A program made the translations under genes and the position numbers. The notes below the pieces were generated by a model. It made no database searches, was not told where the DNA came from, and worked only from the letters and a program-made list of their open reading frames with translations. Positions 21,715 to 55,818 of a stretch of 64,000 nt of DNA are shown in pieces (position 1 is the stretch's first letter; every line of letters begins with the position of its first letter). The stretch spans positions 6,427 through 70,426 of the forward strand of contig JAKAHB010000002.1 in NCBI GenBank assembly GCA_021815315.1. Reading direction: 5' to 3'. Source of the stretch: a bacterium (GTDB lineage: Bacteria; Patescibacteriota; Minisyncoccia; Portnoybacterales; JAKAHB01).

Positions 21715-22482
21715 TTATACCAAATCCATTTTAATGATTTCCTCGGCTAAATCTTTGTAGGCTCGGGCCCCTTTTGACCGCGGATGATATTCTGAAATTA
21801 TTTTACCATGACTTGGCGCTTCCGCCAACTTAACGCATCTTGGGATAACCGCTTCAAAAACCGGTGCCGGAAAATGTTGCTGTACTTCCTTGGCTACTTG
21901 ACGCGATAACCGATTGCGTCGGTCATACATTGTCAAAAGCGCCCCTTTTATTTTAAGGTCCGTCGCTAAATTCTCGTTTATTAAAGTGACTGTCTTAAAA
22001 AGCTGACCCAAACCTTCCAGCGCGTAGTATTCCGTTTGCACCGGAATAATCAATTCTTCCGAAGCTAAAAGTCCGTTCAGGGTCAAAATTCCCAAACTGG
22101 GCGGGCAATCAATGAGAATATAATCGTAACTGGTGCGAATGCGGCTCAAGGCTTTTTTTAGCACAAACTCTCTTTCCGGTTCGTTGACCAGCTCCACGGC
22201 CGCTCCGGCAAGATCGGGGGTAGCTGGCAAAAGTTCGTAACCGGAAATTCTCGTTCTTAAAATCGTTTCTTCCGGTTTTTTCAAGCCGGCCATAACCTGA
22301 TAAAGTCCGTGGTTTAATTCATCCTGGTTCACTCCCAGACCGGAAGTGGCATTGCCTTGCGGGTCCAAATCCACCAGCAAAACATGGCGTCCCAGATGCG
22401 CCAAATAACCGGCTAAATTAACCGAAGTGGTGGTTTTGCCGGTGCCTCCTTTTTGATTGACAATGCCTACAATTCTCGCCAT
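21715..22482 (-). CDS. parA: chromosome partitioning ATPase ParA/Soj
   Basis: Deviant Walker A (KGGTGKTTTSVNLA) starting at MARIVGIVNQ. Start taken as the internal ATG at 22480-22482; the ORF-track extension upstream overlaps the tRNA fragment and is considered read-through. Confidence 0.9.
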   Translation of the reverse strand: MARIVGIVNQKGGTGKTTTSVNLAGYLAHLGRHVLLVDLDPQGNATSGLGVNQDELNHGLYQVMAGLKKPEETILRTRISGYELLPATPDLAGAAVELVNEPEREFVLKKALSRIRTSYDYILIDCPPSLGILTLNGLLASEELIIPVQTEYYALEGLGQLFKTVTLINENLATDLKIKGALLTMYDRRNRLSRQVAKEVQQHFPAPVFEAVIPRCVKLAEAPSHGKIISEYHPRSKGARAYKDLAEEIIKMDLV

Positions 22483-22564: not shown

Positions 22565-22648
22565 CGGCAAAGAATAAAAACGTTATTGCGAAAATGGAGG
22601 GCGAGTGGCGAAACCGGCAGACCTGCCTGCCGGCAGGCAGGCGCGCAC
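22565..22648 (+). pseudogene. partial duplicate of the tRNA-Leu 5' flank plus 5' half, carrying a 20-nt palindromic insertion
   Basis: About 70 nt (ggcaaagaataaaaacgtta...gggcgagtggcgaaaccggcagac) nearly identical to 22912-22969. The palindrome cctgcctgccggcaggcagg (22622-22641) interrupts the D-stem region. Confidence 0.6.
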
Positions 22649-22651
22649 AAA

Positions 22652-22897
22652 ATGAAAATGCATTATTTCACCTATGCGATTAAAAGCCTGGAGAAAAATT
22701 ATATCTATGTTGGGTTAACAAATAATCCTAAAAGAAGATTTTTTCAGCACCAAAACGGCAAAGAAAAAACGACTTCGCCTTATAGACCGTTCCAAATAAT
22801 TTTGTTAGAAAAATTTAGCACCAGGATTGAAGCAAGAAAGAGAGAAAAATATTTAAAATCAGGTTTTGGGAAAGAATTTTTGAAAACCTTGAGTTAA
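22652..22897 (+). CDS. small GIY-YIG nuclease family protein (YhbQ/UPF0213-like)
   Basis: About 81 aa reading MKMHYFTYAIKS...YIYVGLTNNPKRRFFQH...G, i.e. GIY-YIG motifs. Embedded between duplicated tRNA-Leu segments. Confidence 0.75.
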   Translation: MKMHYFTYAIKSLEKNYIYVGLTNNPKRRFFQHQNGKEKTTSPYRPFQIILLEKFSTRIEARKREKYLKSGFGKEFLKTLS

Positions 22898-22944
22898 TTT
22901 GCCACCACCACGGCAAAGAATAAAAACGTTATCGCGAAAATGGT

Positions 22945-23029
22945 GGGCGAGTGGCGAAACCGGCAGACGCGCACGACTCAAAATCGTGTGAGGCAACTCA
23001 TGAGGGTTCAAGTCCCTCCTCGCCCACCA
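22945..23029 (+). tRNA. tRNA-Leu (anticodon CAA), class II with a long variable arm and encoded CCA
   Basis: Hand-folded cloverleaf. Acceptor GGGCGAG/CTCGCCC, D-arm GCG-AAACCGGCAGA-CGC, anticodon stem CACGA/TCGTG with loop CTCAAAA, variable hairpin TGAG-GCAA-CTCA, T-arm GAGGG-TTCAAGT-CCCTC, then A-CCA. The acceptor helix is extended by an additional ~14-bp flanking inverted repeat (ttatcgcgaaaatggt / accattttcgcgata). Confidence 0.85.
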
Positions 23030-23043
23030 TTTTCGCGATAGCA

Positions 23044-23189: not shown

Positions 23190-24350
23190 TTAAGTTCCTT
23201 CCGCTACCCGCCTAAATCCTCCCTTCCCATAGGTGGCCTCAAGTAACCGAGCTAGTTCTAAAAGTTTACCCGAAAGAGCGGCCTTGGCAAAGACCCTAAA
23301 GACATCTTCTTTGGTAGAAAACTTGCCAGGAAATCTTTCGTAGACGGACTTGATAATCATTTGCAAAGTTCTCCTGGCCTCTTTATAACTTCTCGGCAAT
23401 TCTTTTTCTACCTCTTCTCCTCGCGAATTTTTCTTCTCAAATATTAAACAAATTTCGTTTATTTTTTCCGGCCATTGACTTGGTTGGTATTTTCCCGCTA
23501 TGTAACGATTTCTTTTTTCCAGTTCCGGTTGCAATTCCGAAACGTCATAAAAACAAAAATCCTCAAATCTTCTGGTTAGCTCTTCGGTAATCGCTTCGTT
23601 TAAGCTGTCTAAAAATCGCTTTCCCCATTTTTTGGAATGAATGCCCAAGCCAACTCTTCTGATTTCCGCCGGCTCATTTCGCCTTGTTTCCACTGCTTGA
23701 AAAGCATGAAAATGAATTAGCTCGTGAGTAGTTATGCCCGCCTGGAACAACAGGTTATCTTTGAGTCTCTCCAGAGGCAAATTTTGTTTCAGTCCCACTC
23801 TTTGCAAAGATGGCCTATAAAAACCTTTGCTGCGAAGGGCCGATAGGGCTGAAAAATCCGACGCCTGTGCCCCTTCTTTGCTTAAATCAACAAGATGAAA
23901 GTGCTCCGGCTTTATCTCCCCCACTGGTTGCCCTCCGTAGGCGCGGATAAATTCTGGCATTTTTTTGATTATTGTTTCCAACACTCTTGTCCGCTCCGGA
24001 GTTTTTTCTATCTCAAAGCTTTCCGGAGTCTGATCAACAAATTTCTGCTGATAATGAAGATCGGCAGCTTTTACTTCGGCGGGATCGGGGCCAATAATCC
24101 TAGAAATGCCGTGCTGTCTGAAGCCCTCGTTATTGATTTGATGACGCGCCATATCCGCCAATAGCGCCTTCTTTCTTTCTTGAATCTCGTTTTGTAATTC
24201 TTGATACCTAGGTCTTTCCAGCGGGGTTATTTCCTCTTGACCTGCTCCAAGACCAAAGATAGAATCAAGAATTTCCTGGGCGCTAATTCCGCCCTTGGGT
24301 TTTTTGTCCTTTTCATTAACTGGGGAGATGTCGCCTGGTTCCTTTTCCAT
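23190..24350 (-). CDS. hypothetical protein with an HExxH zinc-metallopeptidase-like motif
   Basis: 386 aa containing ITTHELIHFHAF with acidic residues downstream. No family assigned. Confidence 0.4.
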   Translation of the reverse strand: MEKEPGDISPVNEKDKKPKGGISAQEILDSIFGLGAGQEEITPLERPRYQELQNEIQERKKALLADMARHQINNEGFRQHGISRIIGPDPAEVKAADLHYQQKFVDQTPESFEIEKTPERTRVLETIIKKMPEFIRAYGGQPVGEIKPEHFHLVDLSKEGAQASDFSALSALRSKGFYRPSLQRVGLKQNLPLERLKDNLLFQAGITTHELIHFHAFQAVETRRNEPAEIRRVGLGIHSKKWGKRFLDSLNEAITEELTRRFEDFCFYDVSELQPELEKRNRYIAGKYQPSQWPEKINEICLIFEKKNSRGEEVEKELPRSYKEARRTLQMIIKSVYERFPGKFSTKEDVFRVFAKAALSGKLLELARLLEATYGKGGFRRVAEGT

Positions 24351-25861: not shown

Positions 25862-28340
25862 CTAAACAAGAATATTCACAGCTCTGCCCTTGATATAGAT
25901 GAATTTTTGGGGTTCTTGGCCGGCCAGCCATTTTTTAACTTTTATTTTGGCCAAAGCAAGTTTTTTTATTTCTTCTTCGGCAATTTCCGGCGCCACTTTC
26001 AGGGTATCGCGCAACTTACCATTAATCATAATCGGTATCTCAAGCTCTTCATCGGCGACCAAGGCTTGGTCATAGCGCGGCCACTCTTCCTCAAAAATGC
26101 TTTCTTGGTGCCCCGGTTTTTCCCAAAGTTCTTCGGCCAAGTGCGGAGCAAAAGGAGCCAAAAGTTTGACCAGGGACTCATATAAATTATTTGAGATTTT
26201 TTCAGCTTGGCCTAACTCGTTAACCAAAATCATCAAAGAGCTCACGGCCGTATTCAGCTTGAAATCAGCAATGTCCTGGCCAACCTTTTTTATCGTTTTT
26301 TGACCCAACGCCAGAAGAGCTCGGCTGTCCCGGTAGTCGCTGGCTACTTTTTCATTTAACCGCCAAAGTTTATCCAGAAATTTTCTGGCTCCAATTAAAC
26401 CATTGGTATTCCAAGCCACCGCCTGTGAAAAAGGCCCCATGAACATTTCGTAAATCCTCAAAGCATCCGCTCCGTACTTATCAATAATTTCGTCGGGATT
26501 GATGACATTACCCCAACGCTTACTCATTTTTCTTCCGTCTTCGGCCAAAATCAAACCCACGTGCTGGAGACGAGTAAACGGTTCTTTGTGATTAACCGCT
26601 CCAAGATCATAAAGAAATTTGTGCCAAAAGCGGGCATAGATCAAGTGCCGAGTCGCATGTTCGGCTCCACCCACGTAAAAATCGACTGGCGACCAATATT
26701 TATCCTTTTCTTCGCCCACTAGAGACTGCTCGTTGTTTGGGTCAATAAAACGCAAATAATACCAACTGGACCCGGCCCATTGGGGCATGGTGTTGGTTTC
26801 CCTTTTGGCCGCCGCGCCGCAAACAGGGCAGGGAACATTAACCCATTCCGCAATGCCAGCCAGCGGCGATTCGCCGGTGCCGGTCGGTTCGTATTTCTCC
26901 ACTTCTGGCAGAAGCACTGGCAAATCTTTTTCGGGCACCGGCACTGTCCCGCATTTTTCACAATGAATAATCGGGATTGGTTCGCCCCAATAGCGCTGGC
27001 GGGAAAAAACCCAATCTTGCAATTTATAATTTATTTTTTTTCCGCCCAATTTTTCTTTATCCAGCCATTCAACTAATTTTTCTTTGGCCTGTTCCGAGGT
27101 TAAATTGTCATATTCTCCGGAGTTAACCAGCCCGCCATAATCCACATAGCAAACCTGTCCGGCTTTTATCTGCTCGTAAATTTTTTTTGCCTGGTCGTCT
27201 TGCTCTCCCAAAAAACCGTCTTTTTGCCAAGGAACGATAACGCATTTTATGGGTAGATTATATTTTTTGGCAAATTCAAAATCGCGTTGATCATGCGCCG
27301 GCACGGCCATCACCGCGCCGGTGCCATAATGCGCCAAGACGTAGTCGGCCACAAAAAGCGGCAGTTCTTCTTGATTAAACGGATTAATAACTTTTACGCC
27401 CTCTAGTTCCACGCCGGTTTTTTCTTTGGCTTCCATCCGGTCCAGGTCGGTTTTTTTCTTTGATTCTTCAACATATCTTTCTACCTCTTCCCGGTTTTTG
27501 CATTCTCTCTCCAAGCTCCAAGAGCAAGGGATGTTCCGGGGCGACAACACAATAAGTACAGCCGTAGATCGTATCAAGCCTAGTGGTGAATACTTCCAAA
27601 TATTTTTGGTCGTTTGGATTTTTTGAATCAGAAATTGGAAATTTTATCGTTGCCCCTTCCGATTTGCCAATCCAGTTTTTTTGCATTTCCTTTATTGATT
27701 CTTCCCAATCTGGCAATTCTTGCAGATCTGCCAACAATCTGTCGGCGTAATCGGTAATCTTCAGTACCCACTGCCGCATCGGCTTGCGTTCAATTTCGCT
27801 ACCACATCTTTCGCACTTGCCGCCCTCCAAATCTTCATTGGCCAAGCCTGTTTTGCAACTCGGACACCAATTTATCGGCTCCTTTGATTGATAAGCCAAA
27901 CCCTGCTTAAAAAGCTGCAGAAAAATCCACTGCGTCCACCGATAAAAACGGGGCTCGGAAGTGTTTATTTCCCGATCCCAGTCATAAGTAAATCCAAACT
28001 TTTCCAGTTGCGACTTGAAAGCGGCTATATTTTGTTCAACCGCAATTCTTGGGTGGATTTTATTTTTGATGGCGTAATTTTCGGCCGGCAAACCAAAAGC
28101 GTCCCAACCCATGGGGTGAAGAACGTTAAAACCCTGCATCATTTTCATCCGGGCAAAAACGTCGGTAGCGATATAACCCTTGGGATGGCCCACGTGCAAA
28201 CCGGCTCCGGAAGGATAAGGAAACATGTCCAAAACATAGTATTTGGGCTTTTCTTGGCTTTCCGTTGCCCGATAGATGTTTGTTTCCGCCCATTTTTTTT
28301 GCCACTTTTTTTCAATTTCTCCGTGATTATATTTTTCCAT
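25862..28340 (-). CDS. leuS: leucyl-tRNA synthetase, reading frame interrupted (apparent +/-1 frameshift near 27500-27515)
   Basis: An N-terminal ORF (27468-28340; HVGHPKGY... ending [15 protein letters not shown]) and a C-terminal ORF (25862-27577; ...[17 protein letters not shown]..., KMSKRWGN) together make a roughly 820-aa LeuRS. The frames switch within a GAGAGAGA run. Confidence 0.85.
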
Positions 28341-29685: not shown

Positions 29686-30162
29686 TTAAGACTTTTTTAG
29701 CGATTTTTTTAATTTTAACCTCAAGAGCAAACCTAGTCTGTCAATCATCATCTTGCCATCCAGGTGGTCAATCTCGTGTTGAAAAACCCGGGCCGGCAAA
29801 CCGCTAGCCTTAATTTGGCATTTCTTTCCTTGGCGATCTAAAAACTCAATTTCTATTTTATCAGGCCTTTCCAAAAAAATAAAAACGCCGGGCAGACTCA
29901 AACAACCCTCTTCCATTTCCACTTTTTTGCGACTTTTTTTGGTGATTTTGGGATTGAACAGGACGCGCAAGTCGCCGTCAACTTCAGCCACGAAAAATCT
30001 TTTCTTTACGCCAACCTGGGGAGCGGCCAGTCCCGCGCCCTTGTTTGCTCTCATTGTTTTTATCATTTCCTCAACCAACCCATCCAAAGTCAAAAGTTCC
30101 TCTTTGGCAACAGGAACACATTTCTGCTTTAAAATTTTATCACCATATCTCTTGATTATCAT
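29686..30162 (-). CDS. def: peptide deformylase
   Basis: Carries the GLAAPQVG, EGCLSLPG and QHEIDHLDG motifs. Start taken at ATG 30160-30162. Confidence 0.9.
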   Translation of the reverse strand: MIIKRYGDKILKQKCVPVAKEELLTLDGLVEEMIKTMRANKGAGLAAPQVGVKKRFFVAEVDGDLRVLFNPKITKKSRKKVEMEEGCLSLPGVFIFLERPDKIEIEFLDRQGKKCQIKASGLPARVFQHEIDHLDGKMMIDRLGLLLRLKLKKSLKKS

Positions 30163-30239
30163 GCGAAATCTAACTAATGCTAAAAATGCGAAATGCAAAA
30201 AATAAAAATTTTGCGAAATCTAACTAATGCTAAATACAA
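30161..30239. repeat. tandem pair of about 30-bp repeats (left inverted-repeat arm) flanking the GxxExxY gene
   Basis: tgcgaaatctaactaatgctaaa occurs twice (30161-30183 and 30210-30232). It is the inverse complement of the repeats at 30661-30744. Confidence 0.6.
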
Positions 30240-30242
30240 AAC

Positions 30243-30641
30243 CTACTCTTTAGCGGCGGAATTCAAAATTCTCTTTGGCTGTACAAATTTCTGATGAAAA
30301 TTAACAATAATTCCTAACTTTTTGTTAAGACAAACTAAATAACGTTTAATCTGATAATAATCGCTCCTTGCCAAAAATCTTTTTGTTTTTACTTCCAAGA
30401 CAATTTTATCCTCAATTAAAAAATCTACTCTATTTCTATTTTTTTCTCCTTCAAAAGAAGGGGGCAAGATTTTTTCTCTTTCATAGATAACTTTGGCGTT
30501 TTTCAGTTTTTGCTCAATACAATCGCAATATTGCTTTTCGTTCAAATAGTCACCCAGCTCCATTTTAGCCTGAAACAAAATGCCGTTTATTTGATAAGAA
30601 AGTGCTGGATATATAACTTTAGTAAAATTACTACCCTCCAT
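30243..30641 (-). CDS. GxxExxY family protein (PD-(D/E)XK nuclease-like)
   Basis: 132 aa with the NGILFQAKMELGDYLNEKQY...VDFLIEDKIVLEVK...GIIVNF pattern typical of the GxxExxY family. Confidence 0.7.
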   Translation of the reverse strand: MEGSNFTKVIYPALSYQINGILFQAKMELGDYLNEKQYCDCIEQKLKNAKVIYEREKILPPSFEGEKNRNRVDFLIEDKIVLEVKTKRFLARSDYYQIKRYLVCLNKKLGIIVNFHQKFVQPKRILNSAAKE

Positions 30642-30660
30642 AAATTATTCTTTCATTTTA

Positions 30661-30744
30661 TTTTTGCATTTTTAGCATTATCACAAAGGTTTCGCCAAAT
30701 TATTATTTTATTTTCGCATTTTTAGCATTATTACAAAGGTTTCG
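30661..30744. repeat. tandem pair of about 35-bp repeats (right inverted-repeat arm)
   Basis: tttgcatttttagcattatcacaaaggtttcgc and tttcgcatttttagcattattacaaaggtttcgc. Both share aatgctaaaaatgcgaaa with the left arm in inverted orientation. Confidence 0.6.
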
Positions 30745-30746
30745 CT

Positions 30747-31568
30747 TTAGATGTTAAACAATTCTCTCGCGTTCTCAAACGTAGCTTCCGAAATCTTTTC
30801 AACCGGCAAATTTTTTATCTCCGCCAATTTTTCCACCACATATTTTACATACAAAGGCTCGTTTCTTTTACCACGAAATGGTACTGGCGTCAAATAGGGG
30901 CAGTCTGTTTCGGTCAACAGATTACCAAGGTCAACATTGCTTATAACTTTATCATAATCGCGAGCAAAAGTGATAATCCCGTTAAAGCCCAGGTAAAAAC
31001 CCAGCTTCACATACCTCTCGGCTTGAGCCAGCCGACCGGAGAAAGAATGGACCACGCCTCTTAGTCTGTTCCCGTATTCCTTTTGTTTTTCTTCTAAAAT
31101 TTCCAGCACGTCATTATGCGCGTCGCGACAGTGAACAATTATCGGTTTTTGATGTTCCGCCGCGAGGTTTATCTGCTCCAAAAACAATTTTTTCTGTTGT
31201 TCTTTGTTGCTGATGTTGTGATAATAATCCAAGCCAATTTCTCCCACGGCAACCGTTTTGGGATGCGAAATCAACGCCTCATATTTTTCTCGGCTAAATT
31301 CCTCTTCTCTGGTTTCAAATTCAACTTCTTCGTTTTTATCAACGCTCGTTTGGAACTTTTCCGAGCCCAGATGGATCGGGTGCATCCCGATAGCTGCATA
31401 GACTCCCCGTTCGCGTTGTTGGGCGATCTTGACCGCCCGCGCGCTGGTTGAATATTGCGAGCCAACATTAACCAGCCAAACATTATCGGCCAGGGCTCTT
31501 TTTATTACTTCTTCGCCATCATTTTTGAAGGCGTTGAAATTAACATGGGCGTGAGTGTCAATTAGCAT
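30747..31568 (-). CDS. tatD: TatD family metal-dependent DNase/hydrolase
   Basis: Starts MLIDTHAHVNF, with the HPIH and GEIGLDY TatD motifs. Confidence 0.9.
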   Translation of the reverse strand: MLIDTHAHVNFNAFKNDGEEVIKRALADNVWLVNVGSQYSTSARAVKIAQQRERGVYAAIGMHPIHLGSEKFQTSVDKNEEVEFETREEEFSREKYEALISHPKTVAVGEIGLDYYHNISNKEQQKKLFLEQINLAAEHQKPIIVHCRDAHNDVLEILEEKQKEYGNRLRGVVHSFSGRLAQAERYVKLGFYLGFNGIITFARDYDKVISNVDLGNLLTETDCPYLTPVPFRGKRNEPLYVKYVVEKLAEIKNLPVEKISEATFENARELFNI

Positions 31569-43977: not shown

Positions 43978-44865
43978 CTACCAGCCTCCGCTTGAACCTC
44001 CGCCGCCCGAGCCGCCTCCGCCAAAACCGCCAAAGCCCCCGCCCGAGCCGCCTCCAAACCCGCCGCCGCCAATCCACCAGGGATAACTGCGACCGGACGC
44101 TTTGGCCTTTGAATAACTGCGCGAAACGATAAAGTCAAACAAGAACCCAAAAGGAATTAAAATAGCGATGGAAATAAGCCCGAAGAAAACAAAGCCCTTA
44201 ATCAGCCCGATAATCACCCCCGCGATTCCACCGATAACTCCTCCGGCCCACCAAGTTTTGCTCCGCCCTAAAAGACTGCCCAGCCAAACAAAACCGAAAA
44301 CGACCAGCCAAATTACCCACTCAATCGTTTTTAGGCTCGTCTTGCCGGGACTAGTTGTTTTTTCTTCGGGGACATATTCGCCTTTAGTGGCGGCAATAAT
44401 TTTGTCCGCCGCGCCGTTAACGCCGGCATAATAGTCGCCTTGTTGGAAAGCCGGCTTCATTTCGTTGTTAATAATCCAAGAACTTTGGGCATCCGTCAAT
44501 GCACCCTCCAAGCCATAGCCGACTTCAATCCGCATTTTTTTATCCTCCAGCGCCACCAGCACCAAAATGCCGTTATCTTTTCCTTTTTTGCCAATGCCCC
44601 ACTGCTTAAAAAGCTCTACCGCAAAATTATCAATGGTATCGCCGTTGAGGCTCTTAATCGTCACAACGGAAATTTCGTTGCTGGAGTCCTTCTCAAAAGC
44701 AGCCAGCTTTTGTTCTAGTTTATTTTTCTGATCGGCGCTAAAAACTCCGGCGAAATCATTGACAAAACCGCTCGGAGAACCGGGGCTATAATAAGCCAAG
44801 GCTAAAGAAGCGGGCGCTAGCAAGATAAATGCCGCCAGAATTATTTTTTTGAGAAAATTAAACAC
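43978..44865 (-). CDS. TPM-domain protein (YgcG-like) with a Gly-rich C-terminus
   Basis: Signal peptide, TPM phosphatase-like core (ISVVTIKSL...GILVLVALEDKKMRIEVGYGLEG), a TM helix and a GGGFGGGSGGG tail. Confidence 0.75.
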   Translation of the reverse strand: MFNFLKKIILAAFILLAPASLALAYYSPGSPSGFVNDFAGVFSADQKNKLEQKLAAFEKDSSNEISVVTIKSLNGDTIDNFAVELFKQWGIGKKGKDNGILVLVALEDKKMRIEVGYGLEGALTDAQSSWIINNEMKPAFQQGDYYAGVNGAADKIIAATKGEYVPEEKTTSPGKTSLKTIEWVIWLVVFGFVWLGSLLGRSKTWWAGGVIGGIAGVIIGLIKGFVFFGLISIAILIPFGFLFDFIVSRSYSKAKASGRSYPWWIGGGGFGGGSGGGFGGFGGGGSGGGGSSGGW

Positions 44866-44982
44866 AGAGCCCAGTTTTTAATTTTAAATCAATTTTAAAT
44901 GACTTAATTTCCAACAATGCCGTTTCGGACCTGACTAATCGTTTTTCATTTAAAATTTAAAATTGGAAATTTAAAATTTTTG

Positions 44983-45537
44983 TTAGAATTTCACACTCGG
45001 CGCATTCTCCGCTCCTCCAGCCGCTTGAAAATATTTTTTCTCCGAGAAACCGAACATGGAAGCCAACCACTTGGCCGGCACTCTTTTAATCATCACATTA
45101 AAGTCTTTAGCCGTGTCGTTGAACCTTTTTCTCTCAACCGAAATCCTGTTTTCAGTTCCTTCCAGTTGCGCCATCAAAGTTTGCACGTTTTCAGCCGACT
45201 TTAACTGCGGGTAGTTTTCCATCACCACCAAGAGCCGGGAAAGGGCGGTTTCAACTTGCGTGGCCGCTTGCGCTTTGTCGTTCACGGTGGCGGCACCGGC
45301 GTATCTGGTTCTGGCTTCCGCCAAATTGTTAAAAATTGTTTGCTCCTGTTTCATTACCCCCTTAACCGATTCCACCAGATTAGGGATTAGATCCAAGCGC
45401 CTTTGGTATTGCGTTTGCACCTGCGCCCAGGCGTTATCCACGGTTTCGCTTCCCGTCACCATGCGGTTATAGGTCATCCAGGTGTATCCTCCCAGCACCA
45501 CGACGACGATTAAAACGGCTAACAAAATTTTGTTCAT
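44983..45537 (-). CDS. LemA family protein
   Basis: N-terminal TM helix and a LemA-like core (AWAQVQTQYQRRLDLIPNLVESVKG). LemA is commonly paired with a TPM protein. Confidence 0.85.
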   Translation of the reverse strand: MNKILLAVLIVVVVLGGYTWMTYNRMVTGSETVDNAWAQVQTQYQRRLDLIPNLVESVKGVMKQEQTIFNNLAEARTRYAGAATVNDKAQAATQVETALSRLLVVMENYPQLKSAENVQTLMAQLEGTENRISVERKRFNDTAKDFNVMIKRVPAKWLASMFGFSEKKYFQAAGGAENAPSVKF

Positions 45538-55286: not shown

Positions 55287-55362
55287 TTTTACAGATTTAC
55301 TGATAACTACGGATTTACAGATAAATTCGCAAGTCCGCCTAGATTATTAAATTAGTAATTTC

Positions 55363-55818
55363 ATGCCCAGAGTAAAAAGATCTGCCAGCGCCAATAAAAA
55401 AAGAAAAAGCACCCTCAAGCAAACCAAGGGTTTTATGTGGGGTCGCAAAAATAAATATAAAGCGGCTAAAGATGCTTTGCGCCACGCTCTGTCTTACGCC
55501 TATCGCGATCGCAAAAACAAAAAAAGGACTAACCGCGGCCTTTGGCAAATCAAGATTAACGCCGCCACGCGCCAACAAGGCTTAACCTACAGCAAATTTA
55601 TTGCCGGCCTGAAAGCGACGCAAATTGAACTGGACCGGAAAATCTTGGCCGACTTGGCCGAAAACAATCCCACCGTCTTTGCCCAAATTGTAGAGTTGGT
55701 TAAAGCGGGAAATGATGCCCCAAAAGCAAAAGAAAAGACCGCCCCCAAGGCTTCCTCCAAAACAACAAAAAAACCGGCGGCCAAAGCGACTAAAAAAGAA
55801 GCCACCTCAAAAAAATAA
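55363..55818 (+). CDS. rplT: 50S ribosomal protein L20 with a Lys/Ala-rich C-terminal extension
   Basis: Starts MPRVKRSASANKKRKS...; conserved L20 core through residue about 118, then a KAKEKTAPKASSK tail. Confidence 0.9.
   Translation: MPRVKRSASANKKRKSTLKQTKGFMWGRKNKYKAAKDALRHALSYAYRDRKNKKRTNRGLWQIKINAATRQQGLTYSKFIAGLKATQIELDRKILADLAENNPTVFAQIVELVKAGNDAPKAKEKTAPKASSKTTKKPAAKATKKEATSKK

What the first reader, a model, noticed from the sequence alone, without database searches (positions are those of the whole stretch)
30160..30745. GxxExxY (PD-(D/E)XK-like) gene bracketed by tandemly duplicated ~32-bp inverted repeats: possible miniature mobile cassette
Two copies of tgcgaaatctaactaatgctaaa lie just upstream of the gene's 3' side (30161-30239). 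Two copies of its inverse complement (…tttcgcatttttagcatta…) lie at 30661-30744 on the other side. The 399-bp GxxExxY ORF is therefore enclosed by terminal inverted repeats, each present twice. GxxExxY family proteins are nuclease-fold proteins of unknown role that tend to appear as isolated, patchily distributed genes. The inverted-repeat-bounded architecture suggests mobility, or a dedicated regulatory palindrome pair.
Basis: seen in the sequence. Interest (0 to 1): 0.5.

Follow-up and report, generated by a model that had tools for sequence, protein, structure and literature searches.

The report
Nuclease gene cassette bracketed by inverted repeat arrays
A small nuclease gene sits exactly between two housekeeping genes, bracketed by mirrored arrays of a short DNA motif; the same design recurs in many bacteria, and related genomes have the site empty, so it looks like a poorly known kind of selfish insertable gene cassette.

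Summary
A 132-aa GxxExxY gene (PF13366, intact D-ExK nuclease motif) fills the tatD-def gap. It is bracketed by inverted arms, and each arm is a tandem pair of ~50-nt units.

The arms are a degenerate form of a family-wide design. In 82 Patescibacteria (candidate phyla radiation, CPR) copies, the flanks carry 3-5 copies per side of the octamer motif YRCNAAT. It is in sense orientation upstream and antisense downstream, about 30 times denser than background.

The copies lie between co-oriented host genes, and the arrays fill the whole spacer. Truncated copies and gene-less back-to-back arm pairs also exist.

Among 10 relatives of this locus:
- three carry the cassette at the same junction, one of them with 1+2 units instead of 2+2;
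- four have tatD and def overlapping or 1 nt apart, and a fifth has only an unrelated palindrome in the spacer;
- two have only an array or a palindrome.

The protein is under strong purifying selection (dN/dS 0.08).

GxxExxY genes in other phyla, and the unrelated 23S-rRNA-IVS four-helix-bundle genes, are bracketed by short tandem arrays in the same way.

Best reading: a selfish, evolutionarily mobile intergenic cassette with MITE-like derivatives. The movement mechanism is unknown, and I found no target-site duplication in the window or L180.

The parts
30747..31568 (-). tatD (upstream host gene). Its stop codon TAA (30747-30749) directly abuts the outer end of the upstream arm.
   Evidence: PF01026, E=8.5e-81; sequence
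30697..30746 (-). Upstream arm, outer 50-nt unit (R1): AGCGAAACCTTTGTAATAATGCTAAAAATGCGAAAATAAAATAATAATTTG
   Evidence: Direct repeat family D1, 95% identity, 50-nt spacing; unit alignment. This duplicate is absent in L180.
30642..30696 (-). Upstream arm, inner unit (R2), ending at the ORF's ATG. It contains a weak -35/-10-like site at 30684-30655.
30243..30641 (-). GxxExxY gene, 132 aa: a minimal PD-(D/E)XK nuclease of the Cas4/RecB-like branch. D73, E83 and K85 are invariant in the family alignment.
30212..30242 (+). Downstream arm, inner unit (L2). It reads 5'->3' on the + strand and is truncated at the gene's stop codon.
   Evidence: Perfect 23-nt repeat D3
30162..30211 (+). Downstream arm, outer 50-nt unit (L1): TGCGAAATCTAACTAATGCTAAAAATGCGAAATGCAAAAAATAAAAATTT. 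Base 30162 is also the A of def's start codon.
   Evidence: inverted repeats I1 and I3 with the upstream arm. In the RNA fold L1 pairs with R1 and L2 with R2.
29686..30162 (-). def (downstream host gene). Its ATG lies immediately outside, and 1 nt inside, the downstream arm.
   Evidence: PF01327, E=1.3e-49; MIIKRYGDKILK start conserved in relatives

Best explanation
The 584-nt segment 30163-30746 is one member of a widespread class of selfish intergenic cassettes. The cassette is a small PD-(D/E)XK (GxxExxY) nuclease gene flanked on both sides by arrays of a short motif in mirrored orientation. It is inserted exactly between the stop codon of one host gene (tatD) and the start codon of the next (def), on the same strand, so it rides on the host operon's transcript.

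Shown:
- the architecture, and its recurrence in other genomes;
- the presence/absence pattern at this very junction;
- decay series running from full to truncated to gene-less copies;
- strong purifying selection on the protein;
- motif flavour specific to each element.

Inferred, in three steps:
1. The encoded nuclease recognises its own motif arrays. Different elements in one genome carry different motifs, and gene-less arm pairs match the resident element.
2. Gain happens by nuclease-stimulated break repair or copying into intergenic stop/start junctions, or into pre-existing arm pairs. This would be homing-like and would leave no target-site duplication. Loss happens by internal deletion, which leaves MITE-like arm pairs.
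3. On the operon mRNA the two arms can pair. That loops out the cassette and places tatD's stop codon next to def's AUG, which would keep the insertion harmless, as in 23S rRNA intervening sequences.

The doubling of each arm in this window is a lineage-specific tandem duplication of the arms. It is not a defining feature of the class.
For: Architecture across the family:
- In 82 CPR copies, the best inverted alignment between upstream and downstream flanks scores a median of 37. Mismatched loci score 22 and the direct orientation scores 17.5.
- YRCNAAT density is 38/kb upstream in sense and 40/kb downstream in antisense. Background is 1.3/kb and the wrong orientation ~3/kb.
- Neighbouring genes are co-oriented in 64/72 and 67/72 cases, with spacers of ~48-52 nt, which is just the arrays.

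Mobility on evolutionary time:
- The tatD|def junction is occupied in the window, L180, L009 and L018. It is empty in L183, L185, L199 and L098; L099 has only an unrelated GC-rich palindrome in the spacer. It holds only an array or palindrome in L200 and L181.
- Occupied pairs fall in both major clades of the tatD+def tree (bootstrap 93-100%), with empty genomes as their nearer relatives.
- Other slots of the same operon are used in L072 and L066.
- Three cassettes with three different motifs lie in one T4SS-like operon.

Decay series:
- A truncated copy still sits between arrays in L029.
- About 14 gene-less back-to-back arm pairs were found.
- One of these (L028b) is at the site where the related L050 has a full cassette.
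- For the 7 pairs scored, their arms rank 1-2 of 78 against the resident genome's cassette in six cases and 6th in the seventh.

Protein function:
- D73/E83/K85 are invariant.
- omega is 0.08. dS is 0.57, against 0.79-1.89 for the flanking genes.
- The protein is 71-73% identical between genomes whose tatD+def are only 53% identical.
- The fold is nuclease-like.

RNA pairing is feasible. In the minimum-free-energy fold the arms pair R1:L1 and R2:L2 (z = -4.8), with the base of the stem 1 nt after the tatD stop and directly before the def AUG.

Generality: Bacteroides, Bernardetia, Sphingomonas, Gemmatirosa and Treponema copies also have flanking arrays or inverted motifs.
Against: - No transposition or homing event has been observed, and no enzyme activity tested.
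- There is no target-site duplication in the window or L180. The one candidate, ATGA in L009, is a single case.
- Only one cassette was found in the 64-kb window, plus one possibly related array at 55290-55322. That is not a high-copy element.
- Nucleotide identity to L009 and L018 is similar in the cassette and its flanks. Long vertical residence with several losses therefore explains part of the pattern.
- PF05635 four-helix-bundle genes are bracketed by short tandem arrays in the same way, and some non-CPR cases have direct rather than inverted arrays. This weakens the idea that the nuclease itself reads the arrays, and the idea that a stem is always required.
- A PD-(D/E)XK hydrolase alone cannot perform strand transfer (established knowledge).
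- The tree rests on two proteins at 50-77% identity.
Confidence: 0.55

Rival explanations
1. An IVS-like RNA element. The arms matter mainly as RNA: they form a long stem that a double-strand-specific RNase (RNase III) cuts, or that simply insulates the insert. The ORF is a passenger, and movement depends on some factor not encoded in the cassette.
For: - The arms pair end to end in the predicted fold (z = -4.8), with the stem base flush with the tatD stop and the def start.
- 23S rRNA IVSs are selfish stem-bounded inserts that can carry a PF05635 ORF and are cut by RNase III (PMC4990558).
- PF05635 genes in CPR and cyanobacteria are bracketed by short tandem arrays, as GxxExxY genes are.
- Mismatches between arms lean towards G.U on the sense strand: 133 against 82 A.C.
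Against: - Variable motif positions match between the arms no better in register than one motif out of register (0.49 against 0.45; shuffled 0.33). The arms therefore share a motif flavour, not base-pair covariation.
- Orthologous arms change independently on the two sides.
- The motif is conserved across proteins only 55-70% identical, which a mere stem would not require.
- Some family members have direct, not inverted, arrays.
- Strong purifying selection on the ORF argues that it is not a dispensable passenger.
- No Rfam family matches the arrays.
Confidence: 0.2
2. A resident, domesticated host gene with its own operator arrays. The GxxExxY protein, or another regulator, binds the arrays on both sides to control its own expression and def's. 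The locus is not mobile, and the presence/absence pattern comes from ordinary gene loss.
For: - omega is 0.08, and the gene has long co-resided with its flanks in the window/L180 and L009/L018 lineages.
- A weak promoter-like site lies in the inner upstream unit.
- There is only one copy in 64 kb.
Against: - Empty sites are exact stop/start overlaps (ATGA) in at least three lineages. Random deletions would rarely recreate these.
- Cassettes occupy unrelated slots between unrelated housekeeping genes in many phyla.
- Gene-less arm pairs persist without any gene to regulate.
- Several cassettes with different motifs coexist in one operon.
Confidence: 0.13
3. The arrays are by-products, not functional parts. 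Repeated nicking or breakage next to the nuclease gene, followed by slipped repair, generates short tandem repeats on both sides.
For: - The arms in this lineage duplicate in tandem: 2+2 units here against 1+2 in L180. The downstream duplicate in L180 even includes the first bases of def.
- Unexplained intergenic heptamer arrays, often as convergent pairs, are known in Xanthomonas, cyanobacteria and Beggiatoa (PMC4692102, PMC4679880).
Against: - The motif, its orientation and its copy number (3-5 per side) are conserved across hundreds of diverged copies.
- Four-helix-bundle genes, which are not nucleases, have arrays too.
- Gene-less pairs retain intact motifs.
Confidence: 0.07

Closest known systems
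23S rRNA intervening sequences (IVS) carrying an S23p / four-helix-bundle ORF (PF05635), e.g. Coxiella burnetii and Leptospira
   Same: [quoted passage not shown]
- Distribution is sporadic, and ORF-less short versions exist (PMC4990558).
- PF05635 genes in my loci are bracketed by short tandem arrays, as GxxExxY genes are.
   Different: - This insert lies between protein-coding genes, not in an rRNA helix.
- The ORF is a PD-(D/E)XK nuclease, not a four-helix bundle.
- The arms are arrays of a conserved octamer rather than an arbitrary stem.
- RNase III excision is untested.
REPtrons: RAYT (TnpA-REP, HUH/Y1 transposase) genes flanked by inverted REP sequences (from my own knowledge, not checked here)
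   Same: A single gene is bracketed by inverted copies of the short repeats that it is thought to act on. Gene-less palindromic repeat pairs lie in intergenic regions of the same genomes.
   Different: - The enzyme family is unrelated (PD-(D/E)XK, not HUH).
- The repeats are tandem octamer arrays, not single hairpins.
- Copy number is low (one cassette in 64 kb), not hundreds per genome.
MITEs and their autonomous TIR transposons; Correia/ERIC-type intergenic palindromes (own knowledge)
   Same: - Terminal inverted repeats.
- Presence/absence polymorphism.
- Internally deleted gene-less derivatives whose arms match the resident full copy.
- Location within operons.
   Different: - No DDE or serine/tyrosine recombinase.
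- No target-site duplication in the window or L180.
- The ends are subterminal motif arrays that reach right up to the ORF.
Free-standing homing endonuclease genes inserted between conserved genes (phage type; own knowledge)
   Same: - A small nuclease gene lies alone between conserved, co-oriented genes.
- The same junction is occupied in some lineages and cleanly empty in others.
- The gene's dS is lower than that of its flanks.
   Different: - Homing endonuclease genes do not carry inverted repeat arms.
- GxxExxY is not a recognised homing endonuclease family.
- Target cleavage is untested.
Cas4 / RecB-family nucleases (nearest structures)
   Different: - About 130 aa only.
- No conserved cysteines for an Fe-S cluster.
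- No cas genes nearby.

Membership tests
GxxExxY protein family (Pfam PF13366 PDDEXK_3; NCBIfam TIGR04256) | Profile HMM score above the curated cut-off | tested here: met
   PF13366 scores 74.1 bits against a cut-off of 22. TIGR04256 scores 73.1 bits against a cut-off of 35.
GxxExxY protein family (Pfam PF13366 PDDEXK_3; NCBIfam TIGR04256) | PD-(D/E)XK catalytic motif and alpha-beta nuclease core | tested here: met
   D73, E83 and K85 are invariant in 25 relatives. The AF2 model (pLDDT 90) has the core fold, and its best matches are Cas4, Dna2 and restriction enzymes.
TIR transposon / MITE | Terminal inverted repeats | tested here: met
   Arms are 87-95% complementary over 19-31 nt in the window and are present in most of the 82 family copies.
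TIR transposon / MITE | Target-site duplication flanking the ends | tested here: not met
   The window junctions read ...ATCTAA|AGCGAAA ... TTTCGC|ATGATA and those of L180 read ...ATATAA|TGCGGAA ... TTTCGC|ATGATA, with no duplicated bases. The only possible case is ATGA in L009.
TIR transposon / MITE | Encoded transposase (DDE, serine or tyrosine, HUH) | tested here: not met
   The only ORF is a 132-aa PD-(D/E)XK hydrolase.
TIR transposon / MITE | Presence/absence polymorphism with clean empty sites, and internally deleted derivatives | tested here: met
   Empty junctions in L183, L185, L199 and L098; truncated and gene-less copies.
TIR transposon / MITE | Multiple dispersed copies in one genome | tested here: inconclusive
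   There is one cassette and one possibly related array in 64 kb. Other genomes hold 2-3 cassettes and 1-2 gene-less pairs within 6-10 kb. The whole genome was not available.
23S rRNA intervening sequence | Inserted in a 23S rRNA helix | tested here: not met
   It lies between tatD and def.
23S rRNA intervening sequence | Terminal complementary sequences forming a stem around the insert | tested here: met
   Predicted fold, z = -4.8, with the arms pairing end to end. This is a prediction only.
23S rRNA intervening sequence | Excision from the transcript by RNase III | not testable with these tools
   Needs RNA end mapping or an in vitro assay.
REPtron (RAYT + REP) | HUH/Y1 transposase gene | tested here: not met
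   The ORF matches PF13366 plus a sub-threshold hit to PF13588 (HSDR_N_2, 19.7 bits against a cut-off of 25), both PD-(D/E)XK-type; no HUH/Y1 family.
Free-standing homing endonuclease gene | Cleavage of the cassette-free allele near the insertion point | not testable with these tools
   Needs biochemistry on the ATGA junction of relatives such as L183.
Free-standing homing endonuclease gene | Same junction occupied or empty across relatives, with the element younger than its flanks | tested here: inconclusive
   The occupied/empty pattern holds. Against L180, dS is 0.57 for the cassette and 0.79-1.89 for the flanks. Against L009 and L018, however, nucleotide identity is about equal in cassette and flanks.
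Cas4 | Four conserved cysteines (Fe-S cluster) and a cas gene neighbourhood | tested here: not met
   No invariant Cys in alignment A1; the neighbours are housekeeping genes.

The most novel reading that the evidence does not exclude
GxxExxY nuclease genes and the '23S rRNA IVS' four-helix-bundle genes are the gene-carrying forms of a single class of elements found in many phyla. These elements are bracketed by arrays and insert, without target duplication, at stop/start junctions inside operons and into rRNA helices. Their gene-less derivatives would account for orphan intergenic 7-9-nt tandem arrays and convergent array pairs: cyanobacterial STRR, Xanthomonas GGGAATC, TAACTGA repeats. In this reading the encoded protein reads its own array and drives copying by a mechanism unlike any known transposase.
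Probability: 0.2. Interest if true: 0.85.

Novelty: new variant of a known kind. Interest (0 to 1): 0.62.

Why it matters
GxxExxY proteins form a large family. A full-library profile search found 5,377 clusters at 50% identity. No function is known for them, and the searchable literature barely mentions them: three papers, all in passing.

If the family is defined by a conserved genomic design, with inverted motif arrays, operon-interstitial insertion and gene-less derivatives, three things follow.
- It gains a testable role as the protein of a selfish cassette.
- It becomes linked to the long-unexplained origin of rRNA intervening sequences and of intergenic short tandem arrays.
- It points to a mobile element type in the otherwise element-poor, streamlined CPR genomes.

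There is also a practical consequence. These cassettes split conserved operons, and they produce spurious fused or N-terminally extended gene calls: many family representatives are 270-900 aa read-through products (L052, L075 and L086).

Tried and rejected
- Genome-wide promoter or binding motif: rejected. The repeat and looser motif versions cluster only at this locus in the window, apart from one array at 55290-55322.
- Known structured RNA: no Rfam family matches the arrays in the window or in 9 loci, even at permissive E-values.
- Intrinsic terminator: none predicted in the arms. Promoter-like hits are weak, 9/12 matches.
- Missing Shine-Dalgarno sequence as a special feature: rejected. 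Only 6 of 48 genes in this window have one.
- Defence system: PADLOC gives only weak Cas4-like hits. PHROGs gives one family of unknown function (phrog_5928, E=2.4e-09) and a marginal second hit, which is uninformative.
- PDB sequence relatives: none.
- Recent horizontal transfer between the window and L009/L018: not supported, because nucleotide identity is about equal in cassette and flanks.
- Clock-like co-divergence: also not supported. Cassette protein identities plateau near 70%.
- Base-pair covariation between the arms: not found. The G.U bias is equivocal because a strand-specific mutation bias would produce the same result.
- A consistent target-site duplication: none in the window or L180 junctions, and none in the few other element junctions I checked by eye. 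I ran no systematic test.
- Inserted genes in the metG-tatD gaps of relatives: these turned out to be ordinary genes, not cassettes.
- The L181 spacer as a decayed remnant: only weak support. The palindrome has z of about 4, but its similarity to the window arms has z of about 2.
Full report
**1. What is in the window**

All genes around the finding are on the minus strand: rsmI, metG, tatD (30747-31568), a 132-aa ORF (30243-30641) and def (29686-30162). The 132-aa ORF matches PF13366/PDDEXK_3 (E=1.5e-20) and TIGR04256 'GxxExxY protein'.

The two spacers around it, 105 nt and 80 nt, consist almost entirely of a ~50-nt unit present twice on each side.
- Upstream of the ORF: 30746-30697 and 30696-30642, 95% identical over 41 nt.
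- Downstream: 30162-30211 and 30212-30242, with a perfect 23-mer. The inner copy is cut short by the stop codon.

The downstream units are the reverse complement of the upstream ones: 87% over 31 nt and 95% over 19 nt. The layout is therefore -> -> [gene] <- <-.

The 23-mer has no other match in 64 kb even with three mismatches (expected 0.00). The pair is the strongest long-range inverted repeat in the window. Seven independent assemblies of the same organism, a Parcubacteria/Portnoybacteria-like MAG (GCA_027347425.1), are identical over the 701 nt from 30100 to 30800.

**2. The arms are a degenerate version of a family-wide design**

A scan of one genome per species found 382 relatives of this protein, and I kept 80 loci. 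Nearly all that carry a taxonomic label are Patescibacteria (CPR) groups; some MAG titles carry other automatic labels. For 82 gene copies I measured the following.
- The best inverted alignment between 160 nt upstream and 160 nt downstream scores a median of 37. Upstream/downstream pairs taken from different loci score 22, and the direct orientation scores 17.5.
- The flanks are built from a short motif: ATGCGAAT, CTACGAAT, ATGCTAAT, ATGCCAAT or CTACAAAT, summarised as YRCNAAT. There are usually 3-5 copies per side at 8-11-nt spacing.
- Motif density is 38/kb upstream in sense and 40/kb downstream in antisense. Density is about 3/kb in the wrong orientation and 1.3/kb in 480 kb of background.
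- A typical arm reads ATG ATGCNAAT CTACNAAT nn ATGCNAAT CTRCNAAT TGCNAAT|ATG.

The window's arm, ATGCGAAAT CTAACTAAT GCTAAAAAT GCGAAAT GCAAAAAAT, is an A-rich variant. It shares this variant with its nearest relatives L009, L018 and L180.

**3. Where the cassettes sit**

The gene is on the same strand as its upstream neighbour in 64 of 72 cases and as its downstream neighbour in 67 of 72. Median gaps are 48 and 52 nt, so the arrays fill the whole spacer from the previous stop codon to the next start codon.

In one Parcubacteria genome, three GxxExxY genes are interleaved between successive genes of a type IV secretion (T4SS)-like operon. Each has its own arm motif: TACGGAT, TACGAAA and ATGCGGA/ATGCGAAA.

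Outside CPR the same placement is seen.
- radA|FAD-protein in Bacteroides finegoldii, with inverted CACAGAGGA x3.
- ade|mannose-1-phosphate guanylyltransferase in Bernardetia, with inverted CACAGAGA arrays.
- fabD|fabG in Sphingomonas, with an inverted TTCACGCGAAG.
- Gemmatirosa (CGCAGAGGA arrays) and Treponema (inverted ACACGGATTCG).
- A Fusobacteria copy has a 22-nt direct repeat instead, and a Persicobacter copy has nothing obvious.

**4. Evidence for gain and loss at this very junction**

Relatives found through tatD homologues give ten comparison genomes.
- Occupied, three genomes: L180 (tatD 82% identical, cassette protein 89-90% identical), L009 and L018.
- Cleanly empty, four genomes: L183, L199 and L098 have the tatD stop overlapping the def start as ATGA. 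L185 has TAAAATG.
- L099 has only an unrelated GC-rich palindrome in the spacer.
- L200 has a solo array of five NNAGAAT/CACGAAT heptamers next to the tatD stop.
- L181 has a 119-nt imperfect palindrome. Its inverted-repeat score has z of about 4, but its similarity to the window's arms is weak, z of about 2.

On a tatD+def tree the two occupied pairs fall in different clades. (window, L180) has 100% bootstrap support and (L009, L018) has 93%. The empty or array-only genomes L183, L181 and L185 sit on one side and L099 and L098 on the other, as the nearer relatives. This needs either about three gains at one junction or at least four losses that exactly restore a stop/start overlap.

In the same operon, L072 carries a cassette between metG and tatD, and L066 carries one upstream of metG.

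Copy number of the arm units also varies. L180 has one upstream unit and two downstream units, and its downstream duplicate includes the first bases of def.

**5. Decay products**

Of 159 motif arrays in the CPR loci, 121 flank a GxxExxY gene. Of the rest, about 12 in these loci, plus two more in the tatD-selected loci (L107 and L115), are back-to-back inverted arm pairs 70-130 nt long. They have only 5-25 nt between the arms and lie in intergenic spacers.
- One of these, L028 4081-4155, is at the site where the related genome L050 has a full cassette. The ORF therefore sits at the centre of the palindrome.
- Another, L031 2396-2466, is absent from the related L045.
- L029 holds an 82-aa truncated gene still between its arrays.
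- For the seven pairs tested, the arms match the cassette of the same genome at rank 1-2 of 78 in six cases and rank 6 in the seventh. In that last case only close relatives rank higher.

This is the relationship seen between MITEs and their autonomous partners.

**6. The protein**

- D73, E83 and K85 are invariant in alignment A1, and no cysteine is conserved.
- The AF2 model is confident (pLDDT 90).
- There is no PDB sequence relative.
- Against L180, dN/dS is 0.08 and dS is 0.57. For rsmI, def, tatD and metG, dS is 0.79, 1.32, 1.49 and 1.89.
- Across the deeper split, the protein is 71-73% identical where tatD+def are 53% identical.
- Nucleotide identity is about the same in cassette and flanks. 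Cassette identities plateau near 70% whatever the host distance.

The gene is clearly functional. The data allow both long residence under strong constraint and occasional replacement.

**7. What the arms do**

Folded as the operon RNA, the arms pair completely, with outer unit to outer unit and inner to inner (MFE -134 kcal/mol, z = -4.8). The base of the stem lies 1 nt after the tatD stop and directly before the def AUG. This is the geometry of a 23S rRNA intervening sequence, a stem-bounded selfish insert cut by RNase III that sometimes carries an S23p ORF (PMC4990558).

I found no base-pair covariation.
- The variable motif positions match between the arms in 49% of cases in register, 45% one motif out of register, and 33% between shuffled elements.
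- Orthologous arms change independently.
- The excess of G.U over A.C, 133 against 82, could equally come from a strand mutation bias.

Three things point to recognition of the motif by the element's own protein rather than to a bare stem or a host factor.
- The motif is conserved across a diverged protein family.
- Cassettes in one genome have different motifs.
- Gene-less pairs match the resident cassette.

Against a simple cognate model, PF05635 four-helix-bundle genes have the same bracketing by 7-9-nt arrays. I confirmed two of these by Pfam. They carry other motifs: GTTTCATT, TAGGCACT, AGGAGATA, GGGAAAA and CAGAGGAC. They sit, for example, between cas6 and cas4 and between cmr2 and cmr3. 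In some cyanobacterial and Gemmatirosa cases the arrays are direct, not inverted.

**8. Comparison with what is known**

'GxxExxY', PF13366 and TIGR04256 appear in only a handful of papers in the searchable library, and never with this architecture. Rfam has no matching family. Unexplained intergenic heptamer arrays, often as convergent pairs, have been described in Xanthomonas, Nostoc, Beggiatoa and cyanobacteria, without any link to these genes (PMC4692102, PMC4679880).

How the cassette compares with known kinds:
- It works like a MITE/TIR element with an autonomous partner, and like an IVS.
- It is not a member of either, because there is no transposase, no target duplication and no rRNA context.
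- It resembles a REPtron in layout but has an unrelated enzyme.
- It resembles a free-standing homing endonuclease gene in placement, but such genes carry no arms.

I therefore rate it a new variant of a known kind.

**9. Verdict**

The mechanism of movement remains inferred.

Main caveats:
- one copy per 64 kb;
- no target duplication in the window or L180;
- a two-protein tree;
- MAG data only;
- the four-helix-bundle parallel, which shows that the array architecture is not tied to the nuclease alone.

Noticed in passing
window 55290-55322 (+), in the 76-nt rpmI-rplT spacer (rplT 55363-55818): Four octamers of the same motif class lie directly after the rpmI stop: TACAGAT TTACTGAT AACTACGGAT TTACAGAT. 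The right half of the spacer is only weakly complementary (hairpin -13.8 kcal/mol). This is one of only two such clusters in the window (0.42 expected) and may be a decayed gene-less relative of the cassette.
   Followed up: partly
L052 5090-5467, L080 1099-1440, L074 ~6070; plasmid loci L193-L198: Genes for '23S rRNA intervening sequence'/four-helix-bundle proteins are bracketed by 7-9-nt tandem arrays in the same way. L052 and L080 were confirmed as PF05635 by Pfam. These genes sit inside operons, e.g. cas6|cas4 in Pseudanabaena and cmr2|cmr3 in Picosynechococcus. Most arrays are inverted; some are direct.
   Followed up: partly
L200 1947-2026 and L181 3826-3944 (tatD-def spacers of relatives): L200 has a solo array, GAGAAT CTAGAAT TCAGAAT TAAGAAT CACGAAT, next to the tatD stop. 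L181 has a 119-nt imperfect palindrome with AGCTAAAAAYTAAAA arms. Both may be remnants of former occupants of the same junction.
   Followed up: partly
L099 3805-3900: The tatD-def spacer holds a different, GC-rich palindromic repeat (…TCATCCCGGGCTTGACCCGGGATCCAGGATCCTGGATTCCCGCTTTCGCGGGAATGA…). It looks like a dispersed repeat of groundwater CPR genomes.
   Followed up: no
window ~27501 (leuS, ORFs 27468-28340 and 25862-27577): leuS is split into two overlapping ORFs by one extra G relative to the otherwise identical L001 (GAATGCAAAAACC against GAATCAAAAACC), where it is a single 825-aa gene. This is probably a sequence or assembly variant.
   Followed up: partly
window 22584-23040: Three copies of the 22-mer TATCGCGAAAATGGTGGGCGAG, two direct and one inverted, lie in the ~700-nt gap between ORFs 21715-22482 and 23190-24350.
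   Followed up: no
window 44871-44979: Inverted short arrays (AATTTTAAATC x2 and ATTTAAA x4.6) lie in the 447-nt gap between ORFs 43978-44535 and 44983-45537.
   Followed up: no
window, genome-wide: Only 6 of 48 long ORFs have a Shine-Dalgarno-like motif. Several have a TATAAT-like box 7-12 nt upstream of the ATG, which suggests short-leader or leaderless mRNAs.
   Followed up: no
protein library; L052 4103-5041, L075 186-1064, L086 2989-3849: Many GxxExxY family representatives are 270-900 aa because the ORF runs on through the downstream array into the neighbouring gene, or is merged with it by gene callers. Some N-terminal 'extensions' (e.g. NDANFNANDTNYAN in P0091) are translated arrays.
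   Followed up: partly
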